Source of the DNA: a virus
Taxonomy: Duplodnaviria; Caudoviricetes
Strand: one strand, 5' to 3'
IMG/VR virus record: IMGVR_UViG_3300042988_001200
Length of the DNA: 64,000 nucleotides
Shown here piece by piece: positions 13,123 through 55,324 of the stretch (its first letter is position 1; every line of letters begins with the position of its first letter). The notes under the pieces are model-generated. The model made no database searches. It saw only the letters and a list, made by a program, of their open reading frames with translations, and was not told the DNA's origin. A program made the translations under genes and the position numbers.

Positions 13123-13151
13123 ATTTATAATCCTTTTGTAAGATAATGAAG

Positions 13152-13169
13152 CCCCCTTATATAAGGGGG
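13152..13169. terminator. GC-ended palindrome/hairpin
   Basis: CCCCCTTAT-ATAAGGGGG perfect 18-bp palindrome between the AAA and vWA genes. Confidence 0.5.
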
Positions 13170-13177
13170 ATTAGACT

Positions 13178-27831: not shown

Positions 27832-28155
27832 ATGCTAATAAAAACAAAAGAAGAGTTAGAATCAATGTCCTTAGTAGGAGAGTATATCCTTGTTAAGTTA
27901 AATAAAAAAGAAGGTAAGAGCCAGGGGGGTATATTTCTTCCTGATTCAGTAGTAGATAGAATTCCAATGGAGGAAGGTTTAGTAATCTCTATTGGTCCTG
28001 GATGGTTTAATGCTCAATCTAGTGCTTATGTACCAGTAGTATGTAATCCAGGGGATAATATAATCTTTAGCCCTTATGGTGAATTAAACTTTAAAACTCC
28101 AGAAGAAGAATTATATAAGATTATCCCAGATAAATGTGTAAGAGCTATCCTTTAA
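27832..28155 (+). CDS. groES: co-chaperonin GroES
   Basis: LVGEYILVK...KSQGGIFLPDS...EGLVISIGPG...PGDNIIFSPYG. Confidence 0.92.
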   Translation: MLIKTKEELESMSLVGEYILVKLNKKEGKSQGGIFLPDSVVDRIPMEEGLVISIGPGWFNAQSSAYVPVVCNPGDNIIFSPYGELNFKTPEEELYKIIPDKCVRAIL

Positions 28156-28159
28156 TATT

Positions 28160-29368
28160 ATGATTTATAAGTTAGAGAAGTATAAAGTTATTAAAGTTTT
28201 AGAATCTATATTGGAAATTGTTAGTTTAAACACTAAAGGCTGGAGTATTAGTACAACTCTTAAACCTTTAACTCAAACTTCAACTCTATTAAATTCTATG
28301 GAGGATACCTTTATATCTAAAGATTCAATATATTATTTTATTATTCCTTTACTTTTGGATAATATAAGTAATCTTTATGATAAGTCTAAACTTTATATTT
28401 CTCTACTTATATATCTATATAAGTATAAGGATAGTATTACTAATTGGGAGTTTAATGTAGAGACTTCTAGTAGTTTAAGAAGGTTAAATGGGGGTGATTT
28501 ATATAACTTTATTAATGAAAGTAATGATAAGGATATATATAATCAATACCTTAAGGATATTCCAAGAGATAGTTTTATTCAATTTATAGAGGATAAAGAG
28601 CTTAAAGTTAAGATAATAAAGGGTTCTTATATAAGTGGAGAAACTGGTAATACCAATTTAATGGGAGTCTATGTACTAGTTTCTTATAGTGAACTAAAGG
28701 ACTATAAAGGTCTATACCCTCTATGTGAGTATATAAAGAGTGTTAATAAATGCTTATTAATCATTAGTCCTGGTATTAGTAATGAAGTAAAAGACCTATT
28801 TGATAAGAACTTAAAGGGGGTTTGGACTTATATAAAGAACCAGGAAAACTATGATTTATATAAGGATTATGCTGCTATATGTGGCTCAGTTCTTATAGAT
28901 TTACATAATGAGGTTAGTATTAAACCCTATCATTTAGGTTATATAGAGGAGTTGAGTTGTAAGAGTTCATACTCTATAATTAAACCTTCTAGTAATGGTA
29001 ATATAACTACAATTAATAGATTAAATGATTTAGATAACTCTAATGAGAGTTTAAAAAGGAGAGCTAATATACTAGGACAGCTAGTATTCCTTTATGGAAA
29101 CTCTTCTATTATGGAATATAGAATAGTGAATGACCTTATTTGTCTATTAAATAAGAGTAAATCTAACCTTTATATATTAGATAACGAGGTAGTTATTAAG
29201 GATAAAGATATAGATTGGTGTATTCAAAAAGCCATTAAGTTTTTATCAATAACCAATAAAGAGGCATATAATCTTATAGTTGATAGAGATGAAATGGATA
29301 TTATAGTTAAGAAAGCTATTAGTTTAACTAATATGTTAGATTCTATAGAGTTTGTTATAAAGAAGTAA
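28160..29368 (+). CDS. groEL: highly degenerate, shortened GroEL-like chaperonin
   Basis: Apical-domain similarity (VLVSYSELKDYKGLYPLCEYIKSVNKCLLIISPGI; KDYAAICGSVLI; HLGYIEEL; ESLKRRANIL); follows groES; no GDGTTT. Confidence 0.65.
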   Translation: MIYKLEKYKVIKVLESILEIVSLNTKGWSISTTLKPLTQTSTLLNSMEDTFISKDSIYYFIIPLLLDNISNLYDKSKLYISLLIYLYKYKDSITNWEFNVETSSSLRRLNGGDLYNFINESNDKDIYNQYLKDIPRDSFIQFIEDKELKVKIIKGSYISGETGNTNLMGVYVLVSYSELKDYKGLYPLCEYIKSVNKCLLIISPGISNEVKDLFDKNLKGVWTYIKNQENYDLYKDYAAICGSVLIDLHNEVSIKPYHLGYIEELSCKSSYSIIKPSSNGNITTINRLNDLDNSNESLKRRANILGQLVFLYGNSSIMEYRIVNDLICLLNKSKSNLYILDNEVVIKDKDIDWCIQKAIKFLSITNKEAYNLIVDRDEMDIIVKKAISLTNMLDSIEFVIKK

Positions 29369-29777
29369 ATGTATTATTCTTATAATCTGATACGAAATAA
29401 ATACTTGTTATTGGTATATCCAATAAAGAAACGTTACTAGTATTTCCACATTTAGTAACATTTTCTTTTATAGATAGGAATAAAGACTGTTCTCTAATAT
29501 ATAGATTATCTATAACAAACTCTTGAATAGAGAAAGGAAAGTAACCTATTTTAATATTAAAAGGAGGTGGTAAATAGAATATAGAATATAAAAACTCTTG
29601 TATTGATATATATGAACCTAAATAAGACCCATATATTGTATTTATATAATCACCAATAATTATAGAATTAGGGTCATTCTGTCCTGTAATAAATAATAAA
29701 GAGGGTAATGACATAGCCTCTGAAATAAGAGGTTGACTATTAGATAATCCTAGTTTAATAGAAGAAATTACTGTCAT
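29355..29777 (-). CDS. hypothetical protein
   Basis: 140-aa ORF. Confidence 0.45.
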   Translation of the reverse strand: MTVISSIKLGLSNSQPLISEAMSLPSLLFITGQNDPNSIIIGDYINTIYGSYLGSYISIQEFLYSIFYLPPPFNIKIGYFPFSIQEFVIDNLYIREQSLFLSIKENVTKCGNTSNVSLLDIPITSIYFVSDYKNNTFTSL

Positions 29778-29778
29778 A

Positions 29779-30288
29779 TTAAATTAAAGTAGATAGCCTA
29801 GATAACGATTTAAACCCTATAACCTTTAGTTCATTCCGATAAGTAAGACCAATAAAGCAAACTATTGGGTAATCTGGAGCCCAGAACATATCTAAAGAGT
29901 TACAGAAACTTATTAGTTTAGGGTTATTAGTGCATCTATATACTTTTATTTCATTAAGAGAGTTGTAAGTATTTTTATATATTTTAGTAAGTTTACCTTC
30001 TATAAATGTAGCTAAGTATAGTTTATTCCATTTATAAGGTGGAGCTATAGAGAAAACTTTTTCATCTGGATATTTATTAATGAAATCTAATATCCCAGTA
30101 GTATGGATAATCTCTCCAATATTTATATCTTTAGAGGTTCTAATAAATATATAGTCTCTTATAGAAATGCTATTAACCTTAGATATAAATTTACTAGAAG
30201 ATACGTCTTGAGAATCAAAGTTCCATATTACTGGGTGTAACTTGTCCTTTATGTAATAGTAATAATCAAATATAGATAAAGATTGCAT
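29779..30288 (-). CDS. hypothetical protein
   Basis: 169-aa ORF. Confidence 0.5.
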   Translation of the reverse strand: MQSLSIFDYYYYIKDKLHPVIWNFDSQDVSSSKFISKVNSISIRDYIFIRTSKDINIGEIIHTTGILDFINKYPDEKVFSIAPPYKWNKLYLATFIEGKLTKIYKNTYNSLNEIKVYRCTNNPKLISFCNSLDMFWAPDYPIVCFIGLTYRNELKVIGFKSLSRLSTLI

Positions 30289-30298
30289 ATATATAATA

Positions 30299-30335
30299 AA
30301 TAAACCTTTTTATATTATAAATAAAAAGGTTTATT
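30299..30335. terminator. 15-bp stem-loop
   Basis: AATAAACCTTTTTAT-7 nt-ATAAAAAGGTTTATT. Confidence 0.6.
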
Positions 30336-30351
30336 AGAAGAGATTAAATAT

Positions 30352-30720
30352 TTATACTCTACCTATATATACTAATTTAGGGTTATTAAAAGTAGTAACT
30401 GGTAAGAATGAACTATAGGATTCCTTTCTTTTAAATAGTCTGGATACTACTAAATCTTCACCTAGTACAGCTTTAGCACTAAGTATTAAGGCTTCAATAA
30501 GAAATTCTATATCATTGATATGGTTAAAAGAGGTAGTTATAGCATACTCTTTTTTATTATTAAGGAATGGAAATTCTTCAATAGACTCTATATTAACTTT
30601 AAAGTATTCAGATAGATAATTAGCTATTTCCTTATCTTCAAATAGAGAGTTTAACGAAGGTTCAATCCAGGATAGCAATAGAATATTTGATTCAACGATA
30701 GTTTTAACAAAGAGTTTCAT
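30352..30720 (-). CDS. hypothetical protein
   Basis: 122-aa ORF. Confidence 0.5.
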   Translation of the reverse strand: MKLFVKTIVESNILLLSWIEPSLNSLFEDKEIANYLSEYFKVNIESIEEFPFLNNKKEYAITTSFNHINDIEFLIEALILSAKAVLGEDLVVSRLFKRKESYSSFLPVTTFNNPKLVYIGRV

Positions 30721-30741
30721 ATACTTATATTTGATTAAAGG

Positions 30742-31308
30742 TTAAAATGATTTCCATTGAATAGACAACTCCCCTACAGAATTATCTAAGGATAAGAAGT
30801 TACATAGCTTAATATCTAGAGTTTTCTTATAGCTAAAGGGCATTTTCCTATATGTAGGAAGACCTAATAACTCTAGAAGTCTACATTTATCATATTCTAT
30901 TAGGGAAGTCACTAAGACTTTGTTTACATGTATCTCAATAGGTATAGTTTTATCTTCTCCAATAACATCTCCTTTTTTATTAATAAAGTAACACCAATCT
31001 ATTTCATGGTCATCTAAAAAAGATACTTCAATAGTTGATTTATGTCTAGTAATAGCTTTACTACTAGAAGTATTTCTAATATGTCTCCCTTTAGGATAGG
31101 GGGATTCTATATTTATATGGTCCTCTAGTTTATAATAACACCACTCATCTATAGAATTACTATTAGAGATAAATCTAGTAGTTTTACTATCATCTGACCA
31201 TTTCCATATATCTAAAATATTATGAATAGTCTGTGAAGAGTTAGCCTTCACATAATGAGTTAGGACATCACCTCCAAGTAAGTTATAAGTTATTGATACA
31301 AATTTCAT
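30742..31308 (-). CDS. hypothetical protein
   Basis: 188-aa ORF coupled to the photolyase-like gene. Confidence 0.55.
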   Translation of the reverse strand: MKFVSITYNLLGGDVLTHYVKANSSQTIHNILDIWKWSDDSKTTRFISNSNSIDEWCYYKLEDHINIESPYPKGRHIRNTSSSKAITRHKSTIEVSFLDDHEIDWCYFINKKGDVIGEDKTIPIEIHVNKVLVTSLIEYDKCRLLELLGLPTYRKMPFSYKKTLDIKLCNFLSLDNSVGELSIQWKSF

Positions 31309-32351
31309 AAGTTTAGATATATAGAATAATCAGTAATAAAAGGATTATAGTCTAATAAATACACTTCAAATAAGATTTTAAGTAAGATTAAAGGTATTTC
31401 TTCTTGCTTAAAGAACTTAACTAGCTCTATTCTATCATCGTTAGATAAGAAATTGGTTGTTATAAGTTCCTCTAAAAGATAGTTGATAGAACTATATTGA
31501 GAGGTTAAGGAAATAATCTCTTTGATTTTAGATTCATAAGAAGGGGTATAACTCTCCTTTATGAACATACTCTTATTCTTAAGGATATGGATAGAGGATA
31601 AATCTCTCCTTAGAATATTATAAATAGAAGAGATTATCTCTTCATTTATTGACTTAGATAGAAGGATTAGTAACACTTCTCTAGGACTTATAACTCCAGT
31701 AGAAAGGTATTTACCTATATTTAAAGAGCAGTCTCCTCTATATAAAGATAGTTGTTTAAAGATTGTATCTCTAATATCCTCTACTAAAGGAACCTCTTCT
31801 TGAGGTAGTTCGATAAAGGAAAAGGATTTATATAGAGGTTTCTTAAAGATAATAGTAGAGGCTAAGATATCAGATAAAGAGTTATAAGGTATCTCTTTAG
31901 GTTTACTAGCCCCTATAGTATCTAATAACTTTACTAAATCTATAGAGTTCCAGGCCCCTGAGACCTCTATGTAATTAGACTTAAATATAGATTTATAGAC
32001 CTGTTCCCCTCTATTAGGTAAATGAATATTACTTTTAGTAATATATACATCTGGTTTATATTTCTCTACAAGGGAAGTAGATTCCTTATAGTTATTAAAT
32101 ATAAAAAGATTAGTTCCATATAATTTAAGAGTTTGTTTAAGGGATAAAGAGCAATCTTTTATAAAAGATTGTTTAGCCTTAGATAAACTTTTAAAACAAG
32201 GAACTTCCCAGTTGGTTACACAATAAGGTAATATCCTATATTGATTAGGATAACTATTATTGATAATATTAAACTCTCCTAGAGCTCTTTCTATTAGAGG
32301 ATTATCAATTAATCTAAGGACTCCTGTAAAGTTTACTAAGGCTAGTTTCAT
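31305..32351 (-). CDS. degenerate DNA photolyase/cryptochrome-like protein
   Basis: VNFTGVLRLIDNPLI (cf. WFRRDLRLHDNPAL), SFIKDCSLSLKQTLKLYGTNLFI, IGKYLSTGVISPREV, LEELITTNFLSNDDRIEL, FEVYLLDYNP. Confidence 0.7.
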   Translation of the reverse strand: MKLALVNFTGVLRLIDNPLIERALGEFNIINNSYPNQYRILPYCVTNWEVPCFKSLSKAKQSFIKDCSLSLKQTLKLYGTNLFIFNNYKESTSLVEKYKPDVYITKSNIHLPNRGEQVYKSIFKSNYIEVSGAWNSIDLVKLLDTIGASKPKEIPYNSLSDILASTIIFKKPLYKSFSFIELPQEEVPLVEDIRDTIFKQLSLYRGDCSLNIGKYLSTGVISPREVLLILLSKSINEEIISSIYNILRRDLSSIHILKNKSMFIKESYTPSYESKIKEIISLTSQYSSINYLLEELITTNFLSNDDRIELVKFFKQEEIPLILLKILFEVYLLDYNPFITDYSIYLNL

Positions 32352-32363
32352 CTTTTATCCTTT

Positions 32364-32612
32364 TTAATAACTAGGCATCTCTATATCTAAGGAGTTATCC
32401 TCCATTAGTTTCTGTTGTAATATAGCTCTTTTCCTCTCTATACTCTTAGCTTTAGTTAAAGTTCTTAGTTTCCTTTTTCTTTTATCTCTTTTATTCTCAA
32501 AGTAATCCTTTAGTTTACTAGTTTCTAATAATCTTTCATTATAAACCTTTTTGTTAAATCTATATAATAAAGAATCAATGGTTTCATCAGGATTCTTTCT
32601 TACTTGACACAT
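32364..32612 (-). CDS. rpsU: 30S ribosomal protein bS21
   Basis: VRKNPDETIDSLLYRFNKKV...LLETSKLKDYFENKRDKRKRK. Confidence 0.85.
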   Translation of the reverse strand: MCQVRKNPDETIDSLLYRFNKKVYNERLLETSKLKDYFENKRDKRKRKLRTLTKAKSIERKRAILQQKLMEDNSLDIEMPSY

Positions 32613-32650
32613 ATAATTAACCTTTGATATATATTACTAATAATTATATA

Positions 32651-32914
32651 TCAAAGTTTAAAGTCTTGTAGTAAACAATCTTCTAAATCTAGTATTCGTA
32701 TAGATAAAGGGTTTAATTTGTTATCTATAAGAACTTTATTTCTTTCATACGCTATATAAGTGGATACGTAATTGGGTCTTAATTCCTCTAATAATTCTTC
32801 TAAAAAACAATATTCTACAAACTTTATAGGATTAGAACCTGTAATAACAAGAGACCCATTGGAGAATTTAATTATCCAATGGGCTGTTTCTTCTAACCAA
32901 TTAGCTTTAGACAT
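32651..32914 (-). CDS. hypothetical protein
   Basis: 87-aa ORF. Confidence 0.45.
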   Translation of the reverse strand: MSKANWLEETAHWIIKFSNGSLVITGSNPIKFVEYCFLEELLEELRPNYVSTYIAYERNKVLIDNKLNPLSIRILDLEDCLLQDFKL

Positions 32915-32935
32915 ATAGATATCCTATATAAAGTA

Positions 32936-32972
32936 AGAGTTATATTAGGCTTTATATACCTATTATAACTCT
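32936..32972. terminator. stem-loop downstream of clpC
   Basis: AGAGTTATA-T-TAGG / CCTA-T-TATAACTCT with one mismatch. Confidence 0.5.
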
Positions 32973-32991
32973 ATATATGAACTATTCGTCC

Positions 32992-35250
32992 CTAATTGGA
33001 TGAATGATATATATGTATTTCTTTATCTTTTATGGTTATATATAAGGTAGATATATCTAAATGAGTAAGAATATAATCTACAAGTAGGTCTTTAATAGAA
33101 TTAACTATCCTTCCAATTTCTCTTGCTCCATAATTAAGGTTAATTTTACATGTTATTAAATGGGTGATAACCGAGGGTTCTATCTCTAATTTATACTTAA
33201 TAGCCTCCTTTAACTCTTCTAATCTAAGAGCCATAATAGAAGATAAGGATATTAGATTTAATGGATTAGCCGGTAGAATCTCATCTATTCTATTAAGGAA
33301 CTCTGGTGTAAAGTATTCTTTAAGAACACTTAACTTATTAGAACTAATATTGGAAGTAGATAGTTCAAACCCCAAAGATGCCGAGTTAGAATAAGAACTC
33401 CCTATATTAGTAGTTAAAAAGATGTATGAATTGTTAAAGTATATCTTTCTACCTACAGAATCTGTAACAAACCCCTCATCTAGTATTTGTAATAGAACAT
33501 TATAAATAGAGGGATGGGCCTTTTCTATCTCATCAAATAGGATGATACAGAAGGGGTAGTTCTTTACATTAGAGAAGATAAAAGATTGGTTTTCATAACC
33601 AATATACCCAGGAGGAGAGCCTATAAGTTTAGATATAGAGTGAGATTCCTGAAACTCTGACATATCTATTTGGATAAACTGAGCAGGGTTAGATAGTAAT
33701 AACTTAGATAATTCTTTAACTATATAAGTTTTACCTACCCCTGTATTACCACATAGTAGGAATGAGCCTCTAGGCTTAAGTTTGGAATAAAGGAAACTTC
33801 TTTTAATACAAGAGGAGATTTTATTAATAATATCCTCTTGACCTACTACTCTTTTCCTTAGATTAGACTCTATATCCTTAAACTTATTGTAGGTATCTAA
33901 AGGGTTTTTATTAATAGGAACTTGAGTTATAGATTCTATAGTTTCATAAACTAAGGACTCATCTAACTCTGGAAGATTAACTATAAACTTCTGTACCTCT
34001 TCATACTTATCTTCTTCAATAAGAGAATAATACTCCTTTAAATGTTTATTAGGGGTTTTATTCTTTATCTTTAACTTACTACCAGCCTCATCTAGTACAT
34101 CTATAGCTTTATCTGGATAGTTCCTATTTGTTATATATTGACTGCTATTAACTATTACCTTAAGGATAGAGTCAGGTACTATCATTCCATGATATCTCTC
34201 GTACTTAGTTCTATTTCCTCTAAGAATCTCTAGAGTCTCTTCCTTACTACATTCTTCTAGAGGGATAATATTAAACCTTCTAGTAAAGGCTTTATCCTTT
34301 TCTATATTTAATTTAAACTCCCTATAGGTAGTAGCACCTATACATTTTAATTCACCTCTACTAAGGGCAGGCTTAAGTAGATTAGATAAATCTAAGGAAC
34401 CCTCATAGTTACCTAGACCTACAATATTATGAATCTCATCTATAAAGAGAATAACGCTAGGATTAGACTTACAGTATTTAATAAGTAGAGCTACTCTCTC
34501 TTCTAACTCCCCTCTAAACTTAGTACCAGATATTAAAGCTCCAGTATCTAAAGATACAATTCTAGTATTGTCTAAAGGAGGGTATATTCCAGATACTACT
34601 AATTGAGCTAATCCCTCTACTAACTGAGTCTTACCAAAGCCAGCTTCCCCTAGTATAAGAATATTACTCTTAGTCTTTCTTAATAAAGATTTAACTATAG
34701 AGTCTAGTTCTTTAGTTCTACCTATTAGGGGATCTAGTTCATTCTTCTCAGCTTTTAGAGTTAAATCAATACAGAAGTCTTCAATAGATGTAGGAATAGA
34801 GCTAGATACAGTAGTAACTAATAAGCCTTCTTGTAGAAGAGTAACAATCTGTTCTTCTATAGCCTTAATATCTACATTAGAGGTAAAGGCTTTTTCAAAG
34901 AAGGATAGATTATTATTACTTTTAAGTACATGAACAAGGGCTAAGAATATAGACTCAGGTTCTATATGCTCTAGATTAAATCTGTTACTTATTTCCTCTG
35001 CTTGTTTTAGACATATATGTATATACTTAGAATATTGATTAGGGAAAGGATTAAAATTTATTCCTGGAATATTAATTAAATAATTAGTATCTAAGTTATT
35101 CTTCTTTAAAATGCTAGATATTTTAGAAGACCCTTCTTGTAATAATCCTATAAGTAAATGGTTAAAGCTAACAGAGGTGTTTTGACTATTAGCAATACTC
35201 TTAGCTATACTAAGAACCTTATCAGAACCTTGAGATAGATTTAGAGACAT
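32992..35250 (-). CDS. clpC: ClpC-like AAA+ unfoldase (start probably MSLNL at 35250)
   Basis: Clp N-domain; LDPLIGRTKE; GEAGFGKT/ILFIDEIH; PDKAIDVLDEAGS; GNTGVGKT/LFDEIEKAHP; LGF ClpP-docking loop; YGAREI. Confidence 0.93.
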   Translation of the reverse strand: MSLNLSQGSDKVLSIAKSIANSQNTSVSFNHLLIGLLQEGSSKISSILKKNNLDTNYLINIPGINFNPFPNQYSKYIHICLKQAEEISNRFNLEHIEPESIFLALVHVLKSNNNLSFFEKAFTSNVDIKAIEEQIVTLLQEGLLVTTVSSSIPTSIEDFCIDLTLKAEKNELDPLIGRTKELDSIVKSLLRKTKSNILILGEAGFGKTQLVEGLAQLVVSGIYPPLDNTRIVSLDTGALISGTKFRGELEERVALLIKYCKSNPSVILFIDEIHNIVGLGNYEGSLDLSNLLKPALSRGELKCIGATTYREFKLNIEKDKAFTRRFNIIPLEECSKEETLEILRGNRTKYERYHGMIVPDSILKVIVNSSQYITNRNYPDKAIDVLDEAGSKLKIKNKTPNKHLKEYYSLIEEDKYEEVQKFIVNLPELDESLVYETIESITQVPINKNPLDTYNKFKDIESNLRKRVVGQEDIINKISSCIKRSFLYSKLKPRGSFLLCGNTGVGKTYIVKELSKLLLSNPAQFIQIDMSEFQESHSISKLIGSPPGYIGYENQSFIFSNVKNYPFCIILFDEIEKAHPSIYNVLLQILDEGFVTDSVGRKIYFNNSYIFLTTNIGSSYSNSASLGFELSTSNISSNKLSVLKEYFTPEFLNRIDEILPANPLNLISLSSIMALRLEELKEAIKYKLEIEPSVITHLITCKINLNYGAREIGRIVNSIKDLLVDYILTHLDISTLYITIKDKEIHIYHSSN

Positions 35251-37298
35251 AGGGATAATAAATCTTCTGGATAGAAACAACTAGATAAACTTAGATTAAC
35301 CCCATATAGTTCATCACATAAAGGGATTAGTAATATAGAACCTGGCTTATGAATAGTATTAGTTATTTCATTTATTACTATTTTAATATTAAAACTATTA
35401 AGCACCCTTATGATTTCTGGATTGTTTATTTCTAATATGCAATATAAGAGTTGAGACATTACAGCTATCTCTATTATGAAATTTCTATTATTAGCCTCAT
35501 GGTTAGAAGTAATTATCTTAATGAAATCCACTTTAGATATATTTATAGAATTATTTATATTAGTAAAATCTTCTATATCTATATCTTGGTTATTTATAAA
35601 CTCATCTATATGCTCATATATAGATATAAGGGATAAAAGCCCTTCACAGATAGACTCTAACTCTTTGTATGAGTCTATATAGAGATTCTGTGTAGCTCTA
35701 GTTAAAGCTACATATATTAGATTTAGCTCCTGAATATGGTCATTATATTTATTAGTTGGTCTAAATAGAATATCTGCTGAAGGAACTATATACCAGACAT
35801 TCTTTGCTTCTGCTCCTTTAGCTCTATGGATAGAACTAAGAATAATAGCATTCTTACTTGGTTTACATAATTCCTCTACATATTTCTCTATATAGGAGAC
35901 ATCTATGTTCTCTTTTATGTATAAATATATATACTCTATTAAACTATTACAACAATTAAAGTAGTCTATTAAAGTATCTAAACTAATAGTAAATAGTTCT
36001 TTAGAACTTGTATTATTCTGTTTTATACAATCGTGATTATACTTATAGAAACCACTTAATAAGTTCTTATACTCATTTAAAGAGTACGTTTTATAGTCTT
36101 GTAACTTGTTATACTCTAAAGCTAGTCTAAAGAATCTACTAATAGAGATACTTAAATCTGTACATCTTATATATATCTTCTTACCTTTTGATAATAGTTC
36201 TAAGCCATATTCTACTAATGGATAGTTATATCTACTAACAATAAGGTCTTTACTCTTTACTTTATTAACTATAAATTCTTTATTAAAGCCTTTTACTACA
36301 CTCCCTTGTTTAGGGTTAGCGGGTAGCATTTCTATCTTAACTAGTTCTTTAACTAGTTCTATATGACTATCTGGACATCTATAACAATATGAAAGGGGGA
36401 GTTGAATAGTATTAAAGCTCTCTTTCATAATCTTCCAAATAGAAGGTTCAGCTCCTGCAAATGCAAATATAGACTGGTTATAGTCTCCTAATAATATGAT
36501 TTGACTACCATTATTAGTAAATTTCTTATATATCTCTAACATTAATAGAGAGGAATCCTGAGCTTCATCTACTATTAGATAGTCTGTGTGAGTTGGTTCT
36601 AGGTTTAAATCAATAGAAAGTTCTAGTAATTGAGTGAAGTCTAGGATTTTATTATTAGCTTGAGTCCTTCTTAATTGACTAATATATCTAATACATTTAC
36701 ATATAAATTTAATATAAGGATTTATATATTCTAACTTTAAGCCATATTTATATATAACAAAGTAGATGTTTTCATAGGTTATAGTTAATCTATTTATTCT
36801 TAGATAGTTATCTATTTGTTTAGTTGCTTGTTTAAATATATTAATATGAACATTAATATCCTTTCTTTCTTGTTTAGTTATATTAGAAGAAGGGTCTATT
36901 CTTTCCTTTGTATATATATAACTATAAAGTTCTTGATTTAAAGATTCATCTTTAAGGAAGGAATTAACGAACTCTGAAGTCCTATCTTGAATATCTATAT
37001 CACCTAATACCCTTTTTAATAACCCATAACATAGACTATGGATAGTATTTATCCTTACATTATTTAATCCTTTAATCCTTGTATCCTCTTTTAACTGTTC
37101 AGCTATATGTTTATTAAAAGCTAGAATCTGTATCTTTTTACCGCCTAAAGCTCCACATAGACCTATGATTTGAGTAGTTTTACCTACTCCTGCATTAGCA
37201 TTGACTTGAATATTATTGGTTAAAGCCTCTTGAAATATAGTTAATTGATGACTATTCCAATTAATAGCAGTTAGATAATTAGAAGTCCAATTATTCAT
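35241..37298 (-). CDS. UvrD/Rep-like superfamily 1 helicase
   Basis: ANAGVGKTT, LAFNK, TIHSL, IVDEAQD, GDYNQSIFAFAGA, LSYCYRCP, SSIHRAKGAE, YVALTRA. Confidence 0.92.
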   Translation of the reverse strand: MNNWTSNYLTAINWNSHQLTIFQEALTNNIQVNANAGVGKTTQIIGLCGALGGKKIQILAFNKHIAEQLKEDTRIKGLNNVRINTIHSLCYGLLKRVLGDIDIQDRTSEFVNSFLKDESLNQELYSYIYTKERIDPSSNITKQERKDINVHINIFKQATKQIDNYLRINRLTITYENIYFVIYKYGLKLEYINPYIKFICKCIRYISQLRRTQANNKILDFTQLLELSIDLNLEPTHTDYLIVDEAQDSSLLMLEIYKKFTNNGSQIILLGDYNQSIFAFAGAEPSIWKIMKESFNTIQLPLSYCYRCPDSHIELVKELVKIEMLPANPKQGSVVKGFNKEFIVNKVKSKDLIVSRYNYPLVEYGLELLSKGKKIYIRCTDLSISISRFFRLALEYNKLQDYKTYSLNEYKNLLSGFYKYNHDCIKQNNTSSKELFTISLDTLIDYFNCCNSLIEYIYLYIKENIDVSYIEKYVEELCKPSKNAIILSSIHRAKGAEAKNVWYIVPSADILFRPTNKYNDHIQELNLIYVALTRATQNLYIDSYKELESICEGLLSLISIYEHIDEFINNQDIDIEDFTNINNSINISKVDFIKIITSNHEANNRNFIIEIAVMSQLLYCILEINNPEIIRVLNSFNIKIVINEITNTIHKPGSILLIPLCDELYGVNLSLSSCFYPEDLLSLCL

Positions 37299-37309
37299 AT
37301 TAATTAATT

Positions 37310-37546
37310 ATGTATAGAACTAAGAAAGGTAATGTAACTTCTAAGACCAGAAAGCAATATGGCATAAAAGGTAAATATCCTATATTTGATATTAAATCTG
37401 CTATATCTGCTATTAAACTTAGACATCATAGTAAAGATATAAGTCCTAAAACTATTCTTAATAAAGTGGCAAGTAGTAAGTTCAGTTCTAGTAAAGAAGT
37501 AAAACGATTATTAGAACAAGCTAGATTAAAAGATAGGAGTAAATAA
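37310..37546 (+). CDS. small basic hypothetical protein
   Basis: 78 aa, Lys-rich, KYPIFDIKSAISAIKL. Confidence 0.55.
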   Translation: MYRTKKGNVTSKTRKQYGIKGKYPIFDIKSAISAIKLRHHSKDISPKTILNKVASSKFSSSKEVKRLLEQARLKDRSK

Positions 37547-37565
37547 TCTTTTAATCTAGCTTGTT

Positions 37566-37964
37566 TTAAATTAGGACTTCAATAATCTTAGTAGCTAATT
37601 TAACAGCATCGTAATTCCCTGTTTCAATCAAACAATTAATATTAGAAGGGTATACTTCTAAAGTTTTACATTGAAGAATGTAAACACTCTCTGATAAAAA
37701 CGTCTCTAAAGAATTTTTAAGCTCTTTTAAACATCTATTACAAAGTTCTTGTTTATCTAATTCAGAGTGCTCCTTTTTTAATATATGGTAATAAAGATTA
37801 TCTGTTTCTAATATATAATCTTTAAGATTATTCTGTGTATATAATATAGTTTTAGCATATGATTCTAAAGATTCTATATCTTTTACATCCCATATTCTAA
37901 ATAAAAGAGTGCATATATAAAAGTAATGGGCATCTCTATATTCTCCAATACTAAGAATCCACAT
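37566..37964 (-). CDS. hypothetical protein
   Basis: 132-aa ORF. Confidence 0.5.
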   Translation of the reverse strand: MWILSIGEYRDAHYFYICTLLFRIWDVKDIESLESYAKTILYTQNNLKDYILETDNLYYHILKKEHSELDKQELCNRCLKELKNSLETFLSESVYILQCKTLEVYPSNINCLIETGNYDAVKLATKIIEVLI

Positions 37965-37970
37965 AACTAT

Positions 37971-39347
37971 TTAACTCCTATCTAAGAATTCCTCTCTAGA
38001 ATCTATGTTTATCTCTTTATTCTCTATAAGGTTACTAAGACTATTAGCCCATTGTCTATAGGCTATATGCCCTCCAGGTCTACTTCTTAATCTACTAATA
38101 TATATAAGTTCCTTTAATCCTATATCAAATACGTAATAAGTTAAATGACCATTAGGTAATATAAACTTAGATTTATCTGTTATATTATCTTTAATAAAAT
38201 CATATTGAGAGTTAAATATCTCTGTATATAATTCCTTAACCTCTGGGATTAAATCTAAGTATGGACATAAAGAATACAGTTCATAGTTAGAACGATTTAG
38301 TTCATTATATATATTAAAGGTTTTATGTAATAAAGGTATAAACTTACCTATTGACCTATGTCTATTTATATCAATTAAGGACCCAATATCTAAATAACCA
38401 GTATATAGATCCTTACCAATTGTTAGTTCATTAGAACCCTCTTCATATTGATTATATAGATTTATATAAGATATACTCCTTTTAACCACCTCATTCTCAT
38501 TGTTTATACTTACTCTCTCTCCTATAGGGCTAATTAATTTAGCTATGTTATCTAATAAACCAATATTCTTTACTCTTATATTTCTATATACTGGCTTATT
38601 CACTATAACTAAATCTTTGTATATATCTTTTATTAGATTATTTAAATAATCTATATTAGAGTAACCAGTTGTATATTTGATACAAGTCTTAGCTTCTGGA
38701 GTATAAGAAGGAGAAGTAAGGATGGATTCTAGAGTATCTCCCCAAAGAGAAGTTCTATTATCAACCCTTAAGTATTTAATATATTTACTCCATTCTCTAG
38801 AAGATTGGATAGCTCCTATAGAAGTTTTAATAGATAAAGGTAATAGGTATCTAGTACAATCCAAAGTTCTAGCTCTAAGGGCAGAAACTTCCTTAGAGTT
38901 ATTTAAATCTATATTAAAGTATTTAGATAATCCCTCAAAGGTAGGCTGATATAGACGGGTATAGGCTTCTAACCATTTATCAATAATAAAGTTGTATTCA
39001 GGTATAGATATAGAGGTGAATATAGATTGATATCTAGTAGATCTTTCTTGTCCATCTTGTAGAGGATGATTATAAAAGAACTCAGCAGCATCTAATCTAG
39101 TTAACCCCTCTAGGAATATATATTGATGAGCTAACCCTCTTACAGAGGAATGACCATACTCATTAACTATCCTTTTTATAACCTCTATACTCTTCTCCTT
39201 ACTCCTTTCTTCTATAAGGTCTAATATACTCTTACTACTTCTAGAATAAGAGGCTATAAGAGAGGCATACTCCTCCCCCAACCCCTCTTCATTCTGTAAT
39301 AAAGTACCTATGATTACTTCATTACAAATATTATATTTAAACTTCAT
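37971..39347 (-). CDS. thyX: FAD-dependent thymidylate synthase, double-domain type
   Basis: YGHSSV, QERSTRY, DCTRYLLPL in the N-half; DINRHRS, LRSRPGGHIAY in the C-half. Confidence 0.88.
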   Translation of the reverse strand: MKFKYNICNEVIIGTLLQNEEGLGEEYASLIASYSRSSKSILDLIEERSKEKSIEVIKRIVNEYGHSSVRGLAHQYIFLEGLTRLDAAEFFYNHPLQDGQERSTRYQSIFTSISIPEYNFIIDKWLEAYTRLYQPTFEGLSKYFNIDLNNSKEVSALRARTLDCTRYLLPLSIKTSIGAIQSSREWSKYIKYLRVDNRTSLWGDTLESILTSPSYTPEAKTCIKYTTGYSNIDYLNNLIKDIYKDLVIVNKPVYRNIRVKNIGLLDNIAKLISPIGERVSINNENEVVKRSISYINLYNQYEEGSNELTIGKDLYTGYLDIGSLIDINRHRSIGKFIPLLHKTFNIYNELNRSNYELYSLCPYLDLIPEVKELYTEIFNSQYDFIKDNITDKSKFILPNGHLTYYVFDIGLKELIYISRLRSRPGGHIAYRQWANSLSNLIENKEINIDSREEFLDRS

Positions 39348-39751
39348 ATAATCAACTCCTTAATAGATAACTCATTAGAGGTTCTAGTTATATAAACCAC
39401 TCTCTTAATATTACTCTTATTAATCCAATTCATACAATGAGAACATGGCTGCGAACTAATAATTATATTTCCATTAATAGTAGCACCGGCTACATATAAA
39501 GTACATCCTTTTATAGACTTTTTTAATAGATAATTTTTTATAGTTCTTATTTCTGAGTGATATCCTATAGAACTATTCTCAATAATTACATTACCCCTAA
39601 AGGACTTTCTATAATTATTTATTCTAGGTGGGGTTATTATCCTATTTCCCTTAGTGATAAAGGAACATATCTTAACCCTACCTTGAGAATCTTTCTTCTT
39701 TGCTATCTCTATTGCTTTATAAATAAAATAGATGTCTCTTTTAGTTATCAC
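39344..39751 (-). CDS. zinc-dependent cytidine/dCMP deaminase-like protein
   Basis: HSE...QPCSHC motif, IKRVVY. Confidence 0.8.
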   Translation of the reverse strand: MITKRDIYFIYKAIEIAKKKDSQGRVKICSFITKGNRIITPPRINNYRKSFRGNVIIENSSIGYHSEIRTIKNYLLKKSIKGCTLYVAGATINGNIIISSQPCSHCMNWINKSNIKRVVYITRTSNELSIKELII

Positions 39752-40107
39752 TTAGGTTTCATTATATATTTCTCTATAAAAGATTCTTCTACTTTTAATA
39801 AAAATAAATTACCTAGTTGCTTAAACTCTATATCTGCAATAGATTCTTTATCTGTTACCTCTAATATAAAAGCATTTAGATAAAGGTCTTTTACACCAGG
39901 ATGTAAATAAGCTGGTATATAAACAGGCATAGGATTAAGTTCCTTTAATACACCCCCTGTTTTAATAACAGCTTGGGATAATCCTTCAAAGGAGGACCAT
40001 ACCATTAGAGATGGAGTGTTATTAGAACCATTACATAGAAGGTATTCCTCTGAGTCTACTGATAGTAAAAGTAGATATATATAATCAGGAGTTTCTATAT
40101 TAGTCAT
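39748..40107 (-). CDS. hypothetical protein
   Basis: 119-aa ORF. Confidence 0.5.
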   Translation of the reverse strand: MTNIETPDYIYLLLLSVDSEEYLLCNGSNNTPSLMVWSSFEGLSQAVIKTGGVLKELNPMPVYIPAYLHPGVKDLYLNAFILEVTDKESIADIEFKQLGNLFLLKVEESFIEKYIMKPK

Positions 40108-40210: not shown

Positions 40211-40534
40211 ATGTACTATGAATTTATATACTCTGGGGTTAGAAGTTTTGGATTACCTATTAAATATGTGGAGAGTGAAGATAAATATGTAATAAATATA
40301 GATTTAATGGGAATAGACCCAAAGGACTGTGAAGTAGTAGTAGAGGAAAAGAGACTTAGTATAGGAATATCTCCTAATAAATATAAGATTTATGGAGATT
40401 TAAAGAAAGAGTTCCAATTTATAGAGTTTATAGATATAGATAAAAGTAAGGTAGAGATTAATGATGATAAATTAAAGATAATAGTCTATAAAAATAAATC
40501 TACATCTAAAAGGAAAGTATTACATCCTACATAA
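40211..40534 (+). CDS. small heat-shock protein (Hsp20/alpha-crystallin)
   Basis: ESEDKYVINIDLMGIDPKDCEVVVEEKRLSI...FQF...IDIDKSKVEINDDKLKIIV. Confidence 0.8.
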   Translation: MYYEFIYSGVRSFGLPIKYVESEDKYVINIDLMGIDPKDCEVVVEEKRLSIGISPNKYKIYGDLKKEFQFIEFIDIDKSKVEINDDKLKIIVYKNKSTSKRKVLHPT

Positions 40535-42032: not shown

Positions 42033-42767
42033 ATGTTTAAAGAACTTTTAATTGATGGGGACCAGATAGCACATATAATGGCATATAGGGCTCCTATTGA
42101 TATAGGAAGAGATATTCATTACTATATAAAGAACTTAAAAGAAGAGACTAACTGTAATAAGTCTAAACTCTTTATTCAAGGTCCTGGTAACTATAGACAT
42201 GAACTAGCTACATTAATGCCATATAAAGGTAATAGAAAAAGAGATAATAAAGAGCTAGTAGATGAAATAAGAACCTTAATGGTAAGTGAGTTTAATGCCA
42301 TTAGTGTTAAAGGAGTAGAAACAGATGATGCTCTAGGTCTTAATCAAAGAGATGACACTATTATATGCTCTAGTGATAAAGACCTTAATATGATACCTGG
42401 ATGGCACTTTAATATAAGCAAAGGTAATATCTATAAAGTTAATAAAGAAGAGGGTATAAAGAACTTCTATCTTCAATTATTAACAGGAGATAAAGTAGAT
42501 AACATCCCTGGATTATCAGAGAAGGCTCCTTTAAGAGGTATAGGGCCTAAGACAGCTCAGAAGATATTAAATGGTAAAGATAACGAAAAAGATATGTTTA
42601 ATACCATTAAGGAGTTATATAAGAATAAATATGGAGAGGTTTACTCTTATGAACACTGGAAATCTAAAGAAAGGATTGAGTGTAATTATTTAACAGTATT
42701 AAATGAAAACGCTCAATTATTATGGATTCAACAACGTTATAAAGAAAAATGGCATACACCTCTTTAA
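42033..42767 (+). CDS. 5'-3' exonuclease / RNase H (T7 gp6-like, FEN fold)
   Basis: LLIDGD, NYRHEL...YKGNR, ETDDALG, SSDKDL..IPG, QLLTGDKVDNIPG...GIGPKTA. Confidence 0.9.
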   Translation: MFKELLIDGDQIAHIMAYRAPIDIGRDIHYYIKNLKEETNCNKSKLFIQGPGNYRHELATLMPYKGNRKRDNKELVDEIRTLMVSEFNAISVKGVETDDALGLNQRDDTIICSSDKDLNMIPGWHFNISKGNIYKVNKEEGIKNFYLQLLTGDKVDNIPGLSEKAPLRGIGPKTAQKILNGKDNEKDMFNTIKELYKNKYGEVYSYEHWKSKERIECNYLTVLNENAQLLWIQQRYKEKWHTPL

Positions 42768-42946
42768 TTAAGAATATGACCAAGATTTTAACATCTATAA
42801 AGACTACTAATATCCTGTTGATTATTATCTTATTTCAACTTATATTAGAGAATGTAAGAAATTATGATCTAACTCCTACTACTAATTGTATGGCAGTAGA
42901 TTCTAAGGGTAATTGTTTACCACCAGACCAAGTGCATTCTCCTTAA
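42749..42946 (+). CDS. small membrane protein
   Basis: Single TM NILLIIILFQLIL. Confidence 0.4.
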   Translation: MAYTSLIKNMTKILTSIKTTNILLIIILFQLILENVRNYDLTPTTNCMAVDSKGNCLPPDQVHSP

Positions 42947-42954
42947 TAATCTAT

Positions 42955-42983
42955 ATAATGAAACTATAATCTAGTTTCATTAT
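42955..42983 (+). terminator. 12-bp stem-loop
   Basis: ATAATGAAACTA-TAATC-TAGTTTCATTAT then TTT. Confidence 0.55.
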
Positions 42984-42986
42984 TTT

Positions 42987-43715
42987 ATGATTTATATAAT
43001 TCCTATAGTCTTCTTTCTTATATATGTATGTACTTTTTATTTATTAGATAAAAGGGATAAGGAGCCAATATCTCTTGTGTTATCTATTTGTATATATGGA
43101 GCTTTTTCTGCTTTATTTGTATGTAGATATATACTTCCAGGAGCTAATTTATTTAATATCTCTTTTGTAGAAGAGACTATAAAGTTTATTATTGTTATAA
43201 TTCTATTTCACTCTCTGTCTAAATATGTAAATAACTCTTTTGATTTAATTGTTTATTCATGTTATTCCGCTTTAGGTTTTTCTATAGCGGAATCTCTTTA
43301 TTATTTATATCTAAACCCTAGTCTCTCATTGGCTTTATCTAGGTCTATATTTAGCGTTCTTCATTGTATATGGACAACTATATGTGCTTATGGTTTCTCT
43401 ATATCTGTATCTTTATCTAATCCTATATTCTCTATAGTAGGCATTACTCTTGCTATATTCCTTCATACTCTACATAACTACTTAGCCCTCTTTTCCTTTA
43501 ATTATATATATATCTTTTTCTTTATACTTCAAGTATTTGCTTTATTTATTATATTTAATAATCTAATAAGTAGAGAGATTAAAATTATATCTCTTTATAA
43601 ATCTAAGGACTTATCTAACTCACATATATTAGAAATATATGAGTTAGAACAAAAGAATAAATATATAACTTCTAGATTGAAATATCTATATGCCCTTACC
43701 AAATCCCTCCACTGA
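42987..43715 (+). CDS. PrsW-family intramembrane glutamic protease
   Basis: DKRDKEP, VEETIKF (EExxK), ALGFSIAES (FxxxE), SVLH, IFLHTLHN; multiple TMs. Confidence 0.85.
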   Translation: MIYIIPIVFFLIYVCTFYLLDKRDKEPISLVLSICIYGAFSALFVCRYILPGANLFNISFVEETIKFIIVIILFHSLSKYVNNSFDLIVYSCYSALGFSIAESLYYLYLNPSLSLALSRSIFSVLHCIWTTICAYGFSISVSLSNPIFSIVGITLAIFLHTLHNYLALFSFNYIYIFFFILQVFALFIIFNNLISREIKIISLYKSKDLSNSHILEIYELEQKNKYITSRLKYLYALTKSLH

Positions 43716-45702: not shown

Positions 45703-45704
45703 AT

Positions 45705-54563: not shown

Positions 54564-54992
54564 CTAAACTCCTAGTTTACAGATAATAGAGGAAGGAATC
54601 TGGTAATTAATAAGAGTCTTTACAGTATTCCAATTACCCCCTCCTAGACCACAACCTATTTTATAAGGGATATAAACTTTAAGATTTAACTCTTGGGCTA
54701 TTTCATTAACTAACCCTAATCCTTTAGATAGAGCTTTATAGTCTGTATGTATCCCTGTATTACCATAGGTATTTTGCCCAATTAGAGATACTATTACTAG
54801 GCTCTCTATTCTAGTAGTAATAATATCTCCCATTTCTAGATTACCTACTTGTGATTTATAATCTATTTCTACTTGAGGATATTTAGTTTTAATGGATAAA
54901 GCTAGACCTTTACCCATTACTCCTTGTTTATTAACCTGATGGACGATGATTCCTTCTTTAATGTCTAAGATATTCTTCTCTATGATTTCCAT
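54564..54992 (-). CDS. macrodomain (Poa1/OARD1-like ADP-ribose hydrolase)
   Basis: IVHQVNKQGVMGKGLALSIK...TDYKAL...IPYKIGCGLGGGNW. Confidence 0.9.
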   Translation of the reverse strand: MEIIEKNILDIKEGIIVHQVNKQGVMGKGLALSIKTKYPQVEIDYKSQVGNLEMGDIITTRIESLVIVSLIGQNTYGNTGIHTDYKALSKGLGLVNEIAQELNLKVYIPYKIGCGLGGGNWNTVKTLINYQIPSSIICKLGV

Positions 54993-55324
54993 TAAAGACC
55001 TTTTATTAATTGGATATAACCTTTATTTAATTGAATATAGTTGTTTAGAATTGTATTTAGTAACTCTATAAGTTGCTCTTTAGAGGCTCTATCTATACAA
55101 CTTTCAAAGGTTTCTTTTATATCTTTATCTTCAGTATTCTCATAGAATTTACCTATACTCTTAACAAAGTATATTATCTTTAGCTTCCTATTCTCTCTAT
55201 AATAGTTCTCTAAAGTCTCAATTACTAATTGTTTTAAATCCTCTCTATTAAGATTTCTGGCCTTTAAATTATATGAAGCAATCTTAAACTGCTCTTCTAA
55301 AGTGAGATTTAAGGTAGATTCCAT
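54992..55324 (-). CDS. nblA: phycobilisome degradation protein NblA, apparently two fused copies
   Basis: LNLTLEEQFKIASYNLKARNLNREDLKQLV matches NblA LSLEQQF...MSxEQ; the second half TFESCIDRASKEQLIELL...YIQLIK repeats the pattern. Confidence 0.75.
   Translation of the reverse strand: MESTLNLTLEEQFKIASYNLKARNLNREDLKQLVIETLENYYRENRKLKIIYFVKSIGKFYENTEDKDIKETFESCIDRASKEQLIELLNTILNNYIQLNKGYIQLIKGL

What the first reader, a model, noticed from the sequence alone, without database searches (positions are those of the whole stretch)
32992..35250. Phage ClpC with an intact LGF loop: a possible self-contained degradation route with NblA and Ubl
Seen: two intact NBDs, an N-domain, a short degenerate M-domain and the SLGFE loop; no clpP in the window. 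Known: the IGF/LGF loop docks on ClpP, and NblA binds the ClpC N-domain in cyanobacteria. Inference: the phage supplies its own unfoldase to redirect host ClpP/ClpR toward phycobilisomes (via tandem NblA) and possibly toward Ubl-tagged proteins.
Basis: partly seen in the sequence, partly recalled or inferred. Interest (0 to 1): 0.65.

Follow-up and report, generated by a model that had tools for sequence, protein, structure and literature searches.

The report
Divergent ClpC-type unfoldase in a cyanophage
A large phage of cyanobacteria carries its own, apparently active ClpC-like protein-unfolding motor that keeps the loop used to dock on a ClpP protease. It has lost most of the regulatory middle domain and the motif that cyanobacterial ClpC needs for its own protease core, so the proposed link to the phage's NblA and ubiquitin-like genes remains a guess.

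Summary
Window 32992-35250 (minus strand) encodes a 752-residue class-I Clp/Hsp100 ATPase. Every ATPase and pore-loop motif is intact in both rings. The N-domain is predicted to fold but is very diverged. The middle domain is cut to a stub of about 24 residues. An S-L-G-F-E loop sits exactly where ClpC and ClpA carry their ClpP-docking tripeptide. No clpP lies in the 64-kb window.

The protein is not a captured cyanobacterial ClpC: it is about 37% identical overall and 19% in the N-domain. It sits on a long branch among non-cyanobacterial ClpC-like proteins, and an AU test rejects a clade with cyanobacterial ClpC (p = 0.012). It also lacks the conserved NRIRSL block just after the loop, which I take to be the published R-motif that makes cyanobacterial ClpC specific for the ClpP3/R core.

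nblA and the Ubl cassette lie 16-20 kb away in a separate gene block. The NblA cyanophages Ma-LMM01 and My-WqHQDG have no Clp ATPase. Phage Hsp100 genes are a known kind (PHROG 4871), and two jumbo phages checked also carry their own ClpP.

Best reading: a deregulated, ClpP-coupled unfoldase for host takeover, with partner core and substrates unknown. Another window of this scan noted the same stretch.

The parts
32992..35250 (-). Phage ClpC-like class-I Hsp100 gene (752 aa, stop included)
   Evidence: ORF list and translation. Pfam domains. Best solved relatives are S. aureus and B. subtilis ClpC. Foldseek top hits are ClpC-ClpP models and complexes. PHROG 4871 matches end to end at 594.6 bits.
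34816..35250 (-). N-domain (res 1-145): predicted Clp_N double repeat, very diverged
   Evidence: Pfam Clp_N hits one repeat only, 24.2 bits. AlphaFold gives 8 helices at pLDDT about 74-86. It is 19% identical to the cyanobacterial ClpC N-domain and 48% to its only close relative. An HMMER scan of 1.84 billion representatives finds only itself below E 1e-10. The near-universal MFE(R/K)FT start is replaced by MSLNLS.
34051..34755 (-). First AAA+ module (res 166-400): Walker A 34627-34650, pore loop KFRG 34510-34521, Walker B 34429-34452
   Evidence: Motif positions. Invariant columns in alignments A1 and A3.
33973..34050 (-). Middle-domain stub (res about 401-426): two short helices; the coiled-coil tip and UVR motif are deleted
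   Evidence: Insert length is 53-55 against 82-93 in ClpC and 29-31 in ClpA. S. aureus ClpC residues 428-468 face only 8 phage residues. Model helices 402-412 and 416-421 have pLDDT 64-72. No PF02151 is on record for it.
33016..33888 (-). Second AAA+ module and C-terminal small domain (res 455-745): Walker A 33727-33750, pore loop GYIGY 33595-33609, Walker B 33514-33546
   Evidence: AAA_2 at 183 bits and ClpB_D2-small. Motif positions.
33364..33378 (-). SLGFE, the ClpP-docking tripeptide loop (res 625-629)
   Evidence: Aligns with the VGF/AGF/LGF/IGF of ClpC proteins. Identical in the 66%-identical relative P0003 while its flanks differ. Lies in a disordered loop of the model.
33331..33354 (-). 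Position of the cyanobacterial R-motif block (res 633-640, SNISSNKL): motif absent
   Evidence: Eight cyanobacterial ClpC/ClpC2 proteins read YNR(I/V)R(S/N)LV here. The phage protein and P0003 have no arginine, and the segment from sensor-1 to FxPEF is 32-36 residues against 40-42.
35241..37298 (-). Upstream UvrD-like helicase gene; its stop overlaps the ClpC ATG by 10 nt
   Evidence: Pfam UvrD-helicase. Sequence at the junction.
54992..55324 (-). nblA-like gene (110 aa), the proposed adaptor, about 20 kb away in another gene block
   Evidence: PF04485, 30.7 bits, above the cut-off of 25. Translation.

Best explanation
The gene encodes a functional two-ring AAA+ protein unfoldase of the ClpC lineage that has been resident in this phage lineage for a long time.

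Shown:
- All ATP-binding, hydrolysis and substrate-gripping motifs are intact.
- The ClpP-docking LGF loop is kept and is conserved in the only close relative.
- The regulatory coiled-coil middle domain is reduced to a stub.
- The N-domain has diverged beyond recognition of any known adaptor surface.
- The cyanobacterial R-motif block is missing.

Inferred:
- During infection the protein forms hexamers that dock through LGF on a ClpP-type peptidase ring. The ring most likely comes from the host, because none is encoded within 64 kb.
- The hexamer feeds proteins into that ring for degradation.
- Without the coiled-coil tip, which holds Firmicute ClpC in an inactive resting state and binds MecA, the protein is probably active all the time without an adaptor.
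- Without the R-motif it is more likely to fit an ordinary ClpP ring (host ClpP1/P2, or a phage ClpP elsewhere in the genome) than the ClpP3/R core used by host ClpC.
- Substrates are chosen by the phage-specific N-domain. The phage's fused NblA is one possible adaptor, but nothing here shows it.
For: - Motifs and domains.
- ClpC as best sequence and structure match.
- Placement inside the ClpC-like group, not with ClpA or ClpB, under LG+G4 and LG+C20.
- LGF homologous to known docking loops and conserved in P0003 while the flanks vary.
- Loop modelled as flexible.
- No ClpP in the window.
- Middle-domain truncation measured. The S. aureus residues F436, R443 and D444, which mediate resting-state contacts, fall in the deleted stretch.
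- Middle-domain mutants of ClpC are constitutively active and toxic in a ClpP-dependent way: PMC5699869.
- Removing the R-motif abolishes delivery to ClpP3/R and permits use of E. coli ClpP: PMC7966870 and bioRxiv 10.64898/2026.05.10.723991.
- Gene G+C is 30.7% against 29.8% for the window, so it is not a recent import.
- The host is a cyanobacterium: nblA and an hli gene with the ExxNGRxAMxGF motif.
Against: - No biochemical data exist.
- Conservation of LGF rests on two sequences only.
- Only 64 of about 204 kb of the genome could be read, so a phage clpP elsewhere is not excluded. The jumbo phages XaC1 and fHe-Yen9-04 carry both an Hsp100 and their own ClpP.
- The resting-state mechanism was shown for Firmicute ClpC. 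Cyanobacterial ClpC is described as adaptor-independent anyway (PMC6274998).
- The exact residues of the published R-motif were not available to me. I identified it as the only cyanobacteria-invariant, arginine-bearing block just downstream of the loop.
- The window also holds GroES, an Hsp20-like protein and a MoxR/VWA pair, which would equally fit a folding or assembly role.
Confidence: 0.5

Rival explanations
1. First reader's model. The phage ClpC takes the phage's fused NblA as adaptor and drives phycobilisome degradation through host ClpP. It possibly also takes proteins tagged by the phage's ubiquitin-like cassette.
For: nblA and a ThiF-type E1 are in the same window. NblA is a known ClpC adaptor (PMC7966870). 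The docking loop is present.
Against: - The genes lie 16-20 kb apart in separate blocks divided by a plus-strand block.
- ClpC is coupled to a helicase and nucleotide-metabolism genes.
- The N-domain is 19% identical to that of cyanobacterial ClpC.
- The NblA phages Ma-LMM01 and My-WqHQDG have no Clp ATPase.
- Viral NblA acts when expressed alone in the host (PMC12695635).
- The R-motif for ClpP3/R is absent.
- No known ClpC recognises ubiquitin-like tags (my own knowledge).
Confidence: 0.2
2. ClpP-independent chaperone. The protein works as a stand-alone unfoldase or disaggregase that helps fold, assemble or remodel phage or host proteins, and the LGF loop is a relic.
For: Other chaperone genes are nearby: GroES 27832-28155, Hsp20-like 40211-40534, and a MoxR-like AAA (weak hits only) with a VWA/DUF2201 partner at 11875-14581. 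In two jumbo phages the Hsp100 gene sits between virion structural genes.
Against: SLGFE is identical in the two phage proteins while the neighbouring residues differ. Known stand-alone disaggregases (ClpB here) lack the loop. Those same jumbo phages also encode ClpP.
Confidence: 0.2
3. Self-contained phage protease. The partner is a phage-encoded ClpP lying in the unread about 140 kb of the genome, as in jumbo phages.
For: XaC1 and fHe-Yen9-04 carry both an Hsp100 and a bona fide ClpP, at 182 and 150 bits. Lack of the R-motif fits a plain ClpP ring.
Against: None in the 64-kb window. None of the earlier notes on the other windows of this genome mentions a ClpP (unchecked notes, weak evidence).
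Confidence: 0.12
4. Decoy or cap. The protein occupies host ClpP rings, or mixes with host ClpC, to block host proteolysis of phage proteins rather than to degrade anything.
For: Only the docking loop and the absence of recognisable adaptor surfaces.
Against: Both motors and both pore loops are fully intact and conserved, which a passive cap would not need.
Confidence: 0.04

Closest known systems
Bacterial ClpC (S. aureus 6EM8/9RAI, B. subtilis 3J3T/7ABR)
   Same: Same order of N-domain, AAA-1, insert in the AAA-1 small subdomain, AAA-2 and docking loop. These are the best sequence matches among solved structures (E 2e-131) and ClpC models and complexes top the Foldseek ranking. The tree places the phage protein in the ClpC-like group.
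   Different: About 37% identity. The middle domain is about 35 residues shorter and has no UVR motif or coiled-coil tip. The N-domain lacks the conserved MFE(R/K)FT start and the first GTEH motif.
Cyanobacterial and plastid ClpC, partner of the ClpP3/R core and of NblA and ClpS
   Same: LGF/IGF tripeptide at the same place, the same overall architecture and the same cellular setting.
   Different: 44-46% identity in the motors and 19% in the N-domain. The YNRIRSLV block (R-motif) is absent and the middle domain is truncated. A clade with cyanobacterial ClpC is rejected, p-AU 0.012.
Phage Hsp100 / 'ClpA-like' ATPases of jumbo phages (PHROG 4871; XaC1, fHe-Yen9-04, RaK2, 121Q, PA5oct and others)
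   Same: Phage-encoded two-ring Clp ATPase with a docking tripeptide. The PHROG profile matches end to end.
   Different: In the tree the two jumbo proteins sampled (XaC1, fHe-Yen9-04) group with E. coli ClpA and have no middle-domain insert (29 residues). Those two phages also encode ClpP. The present protein is of ClpC descent, keeps a mini insert, and comes from a phage with cyanobacterial host markers (nblA, hli) and no clpP in the region read.
Deregulated ClpC middle-domain mutants (F436A; Carroni et al. 2017, PMC5699869)
   Same: Loss of the coiled-coil tip that forms resting-state contacts and binds MecA.
   Different: Those are laboratory point mutants of Firmicute ClpC. Here it is a natural deletion in a diverged protein, and its activity state is untested.

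Membership tests
Class-I Clp/Hsp100 ATPases | Two AAA+ modules, each with Walker A/B, pore loop, Arg finger and sensor residues | tested here: met
   Pfam AAA, AAA_lid_9, AAA_2 and ClpB_D2-small. All motif residues fall in invariant alignment columns.
Class-I Clp/Hsp100 ATPases | Clp_N double-repeat N-domain | tested here: met
   One repeat is above the Pfam cut-off (24.2 against 20.7 bits). The model has 8 helices in two sets. Very diverged.
ClpC subfamily | ClpP-docking (I/L/V)GF loop in AAA-2 | tested here: met
   LGF at res 626-628 aligns with the ClpC loops.
ClpC subfamily | Coiled-coil middle domain of ClpC length with a UVR motif | tested here: not met
   The insert is 53-55 residues against 82-93. 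No PF02151 is recorded. The tip residues are deleted.
ClpC subfamily | Groups with ClpC rather than ClpA or ClpB in a tree | tested here: met
   SH-aLRT 94 for the ClpC-like group under two models. Long stem branch and a composition-bias warning.
Cyanobacterial/plastid ClpC (ClpP3/R partner) | R-motif just downstream of the docking loop | tested here: not met
   YNRIRSLV is invariant in 8 cyanobacterial proteins. The phage reads SNISSNKL and P0003 reads KEAILANK. The motif is defined; its exact published boundaries were not available.
Cyanobacterial/plastid ClpC (ClpP3/R partner) | Clade membership and high identity (plastid to cyanobacterial more than 70%) | tested here: not met
   36-40% identity. 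AU test p = 0.012 against one clade.
ClpA | No middle-domain insert; groups with E. coli ClpA | tested here: not met
   The insert is 53-55 residues against 29-31. The ClpA and jumbo-phage clade is separate, 99-100 support.
ClpB | Long middle domain and no ClpP loop | tested here: not met
   ClpB inserts are 149-161 residues and the loop is absent.
PHROG 4871 (phage 'ATP-dependent protease' ATPases) | Full-length match to the family profile | tested here: met
   E 6.3e-178, 594.6 bits, residues 8-747 on profile positions 11-754 of 764.
NblA-ClpC-ClpP phycobilisome degradation route encoded by the phage itself | All three parts encoded, and linked | tested here: not met
   nblA is present. ClpP is absent from the window. 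nblA and clpC lie in different gene blocks.
NblA-ClpC-ClpP phycobilisome degradation route encoded by the phage itself | Physical binding of NblA to this ClpC | not testable with these tools
   No complex prediction was on hand. The ClpC surface that binds NblA is not stated in the papers I could read.

The most novel reading that the evidence does not exclude
The phage deploys a naturally deregulated ClpC. Having lost the repressive coiled-coil tip and the R-motif, it would bypass host adaptor control and plug into a ClpP ring that host ClpC does not use, such as the ClpX-specific ClpP1/P2 core. That would create an orthogonal, always-on protease for host takeover, with the phage's fused NblA as one of its adaptors.
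Probability: 0.12. Interest if true: 0.75.

Novelty: new variant of a known kind. Interest (0 to 1): 0.42.

Why it matters
Cyanophage NblA is now known to damage host photosynthesis on an ocean scale, yet it is assumed to rely wholly on the host's ClpC-ClpP machine. A cyanophage that brings its own ClpC raises a directly testable question: do some phages rewire which host protease core is used, and remove its regulation? The protein has the docking loop but lacks the cyanobacterial core-specificity motif and the regulatory domain.

The protein is also a natural minimal-middle-domain ClpC, useful for studying how that domain controls Hsp100 activity.

If it turns out to be an ordinary housekeeping-type chaperone of a large phage, it adds a ClpC-lineage member to the phage Hsp100 genes, of which the two jumbo-phage examples placed in the tree are ClpA-like.

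Tried and rejected
I could therefore read neither the rest of the 204-kb contig nor the 46-kb contig of the only close relative, P0003. Co-occurrence of ClpC with nblA, Ubl or clpP in that relative is untested.
- Pattern scans found no relative of the ClpC in IMG/VR, using the protein and using the two-sequence alignment, nor in JGI metagenome contigs, which gave only 34-36% bacterial hits.
- The neighbouring helicase has no close kin in IMG/VR.
- Megablast of the region against GenBank phages found nothing.
- No whole genome is held for the window.
- NCBIfam gives no equivalog: the scores for ClpB, ClpA and ClpV are all far below their cut-offs.
- The promoter and terminator scan was uninformative in this AT-rich DNA: 47 promoter-like sites against 52 expected.
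- Tryggvesson 2012 and Baier 2014 are not held. The R-motif is therefore taken from two papers that describe it, and its location from conservation.
- Rejected readings: recent capture of host ClpC, ClpA type and ClpB type.
- The sister grouping with N-domain-less 679-aa 'Glassbacteria'-type proteins has 99-100 support, but both sides have odd composition, so I do not take it as an origin.
Full report
**What is there.** Window 32992-35280 on the minus strand is one open frame. The ATG at 35250 gives a 752-residue protein. Its start overlaps the stop of the upstream UvrD-like helicase gene by 10 nt. Pfam finds Clp_N (weak, one repeat), AAA, AAA_lid_9, AAA_2 and ClpB_D2-small. The window has about 30% G+C and is phage DNA. 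It holds a tail-fibre chaperone domain, class II ribonucleotide reductase, ThyX, dCMP deaminase, a sigma factor, GroES, an Hsp20-like protein and PrsW. The nblA gene and an hli gene with the chlorophyll-binding motif point to a cyanobacterial host. The gene's G+C (30.7%) matches the window.

**Check of the observation.** All motor motifs are present and fall in columns that are invariant across 59 aligned ClpC-like proteins:
- Ring 1: Walker A GEAGFGKT, Walker B ILFIDE, pore loop KFRG, arginine fingers RR.
- Ring 2: Walker A GNTGVGKT, Walker B LFDEIEKAH, pore loop GYIGY, sensor-1 N615, R654, sensor-2 GAR.

SLGFE (res 625-629, window 33364-33378) aligns with the VGF of B. subtilis ClpC and the AGF of S. 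aureus ClpC. It also aligns with the LGF/IGF of eight cyanobacterial ClpC proteins that I extracted from five genomes. All ten cyanobacterial ClpB proteins, E. coli ClpB and an S. aureus ClpB lack the loop.

An AlphaFold model built on a 59-sequence alignment has mean pLDDT 81.8. It shows an eight-helix N-domain, two short helices where the middle domain should be, and a disordered loop at 621-633 carrying LGF. Its best structural matches are ClpC and ClpC-ClpP complexes.

The middle domain is measurably intermediate. The insert between D387 and T442 is 53-55 residues in the two phage proteins, 29-31 in ClpA types, 82-93 (122 in Cyanobium) in ClpC and 149-161 in ClpB. No UVR domain is recorded for it.

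No ClpP is encoded in the window: tblastn with 14 cyanobacterial ClpP sequences and an HMM built from them gave a best E of about 1.

**Descent.** Among 5.8 billion clustered proteins there is a single close relative, P0003 (66% identity, 753 aa, on a 46-kb contig). After it comes a drop to 34-43% identity with ClpC-like proteins; the named ones come from Planctomycetes, Acidobacteria, Aquificota, Nitrospirota and others. No cyanobacterial name appears among the 120 listed, most of which carry no name.

Against ClpC from Calothrix, Anabaena, Microcoleus, Thermosynechococcus and Cyanobium, identity is 44-46% in the two motors and 19% in the N-domain. That is no better than to other bacteria.

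Trees under LG+G4 and under a site-heterogeneous model agree:
- The phage pair sits inside the ClpC-like group.
- It is apart from ClpB, and apart from ClpA, where the jumbo-phage proteins sit.
- Its stem is 1.3-2.6 substitutions per site.
- It lies outside the tight cyanobacterial ClpC/ClpC2 clade.

Forcing the phage pair together with cyanobacterial ClpC costs 33 log-likelihood units (p-AU 0.012). This carries the usual caveats for long branches and skewed composition. So the gene is not a recent copy of the host's gene.

The N-domain is the fastest-evolving part: 48% identity between the two phage proteins, against 75-78% for the motors. An exhaustive HMMER search finds nothing closer than weak multi-repeat Clp_N proteins.

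[quoted passage not shown] Removing it stops substrate delivery to ClpP3/R and lets the protein use E. coli ClpP instead (PMC7966870 and bioRxiv 10.64898/2026.05.10.723991, both citing Tryggvesson et al. 2012).

In all eight cyanobacterial proteins the only invariant arginine-bearing block at that place is YNR(I/V)R(S/N)LV. The phage protein reads SNISSNKL and P0003 reads KEAILANK, and the segment is 4-10 residues shorter. I could not read the original paper, so the motif boundaries are my inference.

It points instead to an ordinary ClpP ring: host ClpP1/P2, or a phage ClpP outside the window.

**Regulation.** In S. aureus ClpC the coiled-coil middle domains form head-to-head contacts that hold the protein in an inactive resting state and also bind MecA. 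Mutants at the tip (F436A) are constitutively active and toxic in a ClpP-dependent way (PMC5699869). In the pairwise alignment S. aureus residues 428-468 face only eight phage residues, so F436, R443 and D444 have no counterpart. I infer that the phage protein cannot use this brake. This is an inference from a Firmicute system, and cyanobacterial ClpC is described as adaptor-independent in any case.

**Link to NblA and Ubl.** The nblA-like gene (54992-55324) and the E1 gene (51449-52144) are real. They lie in a minus-strand block that is separated from the ClpC block (29355-40107) by plus-strand genes at 42033-50663.
- The papers I could read state that NblA binds ClpC but do not map the site to the N-domain.
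- Ma-LMM01 and My-WqHQDG have neither a Clp ATPase nor ClpP.
- Viral NblA works when expressed alone in a host (PMC12695635).

So NblA does not require a phage ClpC. A partnership is possible but unsupported, and nothing supports recognition of Ubl conjugates.

**What is known already.** Phage Hsp100 genes form PHROG 4871, which matches this protein end to end. They are annotated as ClpA-like proteins, ATP-dependent proteases and the like in many jumbo phages. The two I examined also carry a bona fide ClpP, and their Hsp100 gene sits between genes for virion structural or unannotated proteins. None of the 60 records sampled across the ranking is a cyanophage, and a literature search found no cyanophage ClpC.

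The present protein is therefore a new variant of a known kind: ClpC descent, a mini middle domain, an orphan N-domain, no R-motif, and only two sequences known.

**Verdict.** It is a real and probably active phage ClpC-type unfoldase that most likely works with a ClpP ring. The partner core, the substrates and any role of NblA are open. The 'self-contained degradation route' is not shown.

Noticed in passing
P0009 (894-aa bacterial metagenome protein): It has a ClpB-length middle domain (156-residue insert) yet carries an IGF tripeptide at the ClpP-loop position. In the tree it sits at the base between ClpB and the loop-bearing groups.
   Followed up: no
L123, L124, L130 (Calothrix, Microcoleus, Anabaena genomes): Filamentous cyanobacteria carry a second ClpC paralogue (827-836-aa open frames) that keeps LGF and the NR(I/V)R block and forms its own well-supported clade.
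   Followed up: partly
L144, L145, L168, L169 (Xanthomonas phage XaC1, Yersinia phage fHe-Yen9-04): The jumbo-phage ClpA-like gene lies between a roughly 490-aa and a roughly 3300-aa gene, annotated as virion structural proteins in XaC1 and as hypothetical proteins in fHe-Yen9-04. Both phages also encode a genuine ClpP elsewhere in the genome.
   Followed up: partly
window 32364-32612 (-): An 82-aa ORF two genes downstream of clpC matches ribosomal protein S21 at 26.1 bits, just under the Pfam cut-off of 27.
   Followed up: no
window 37971-39347 (-): The ThyX-like ORF is 458 aa, but the Thy1 domain covers only residues 32-198. About 260 C-terminal residues have no Pfam match.
   Followed up: no
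window 27832-29368 (+): A GroES gene (Cpn10, 54 bits) is followed 4 nt later by a 402-aa ORF with no Pfam or PHROG match. This is shorter than GroEL and unrecognisable by profile.
   Followed up: no
L139 (Microcoleus ClpB paralogue): It carries a lysine- and acid-rich insertion of about 60 residues exactly where ClpC proteins have the ClpP loop.
   Followed up: no
window 11875-14581 (-): A pair of an AAA-type protein (only weak AAA_5 hits, near or below the cut-offs) and a VWA/DUF2201 protein. The DUF2201_N metallopeptidase part scores only weakly.
   Followed up: no
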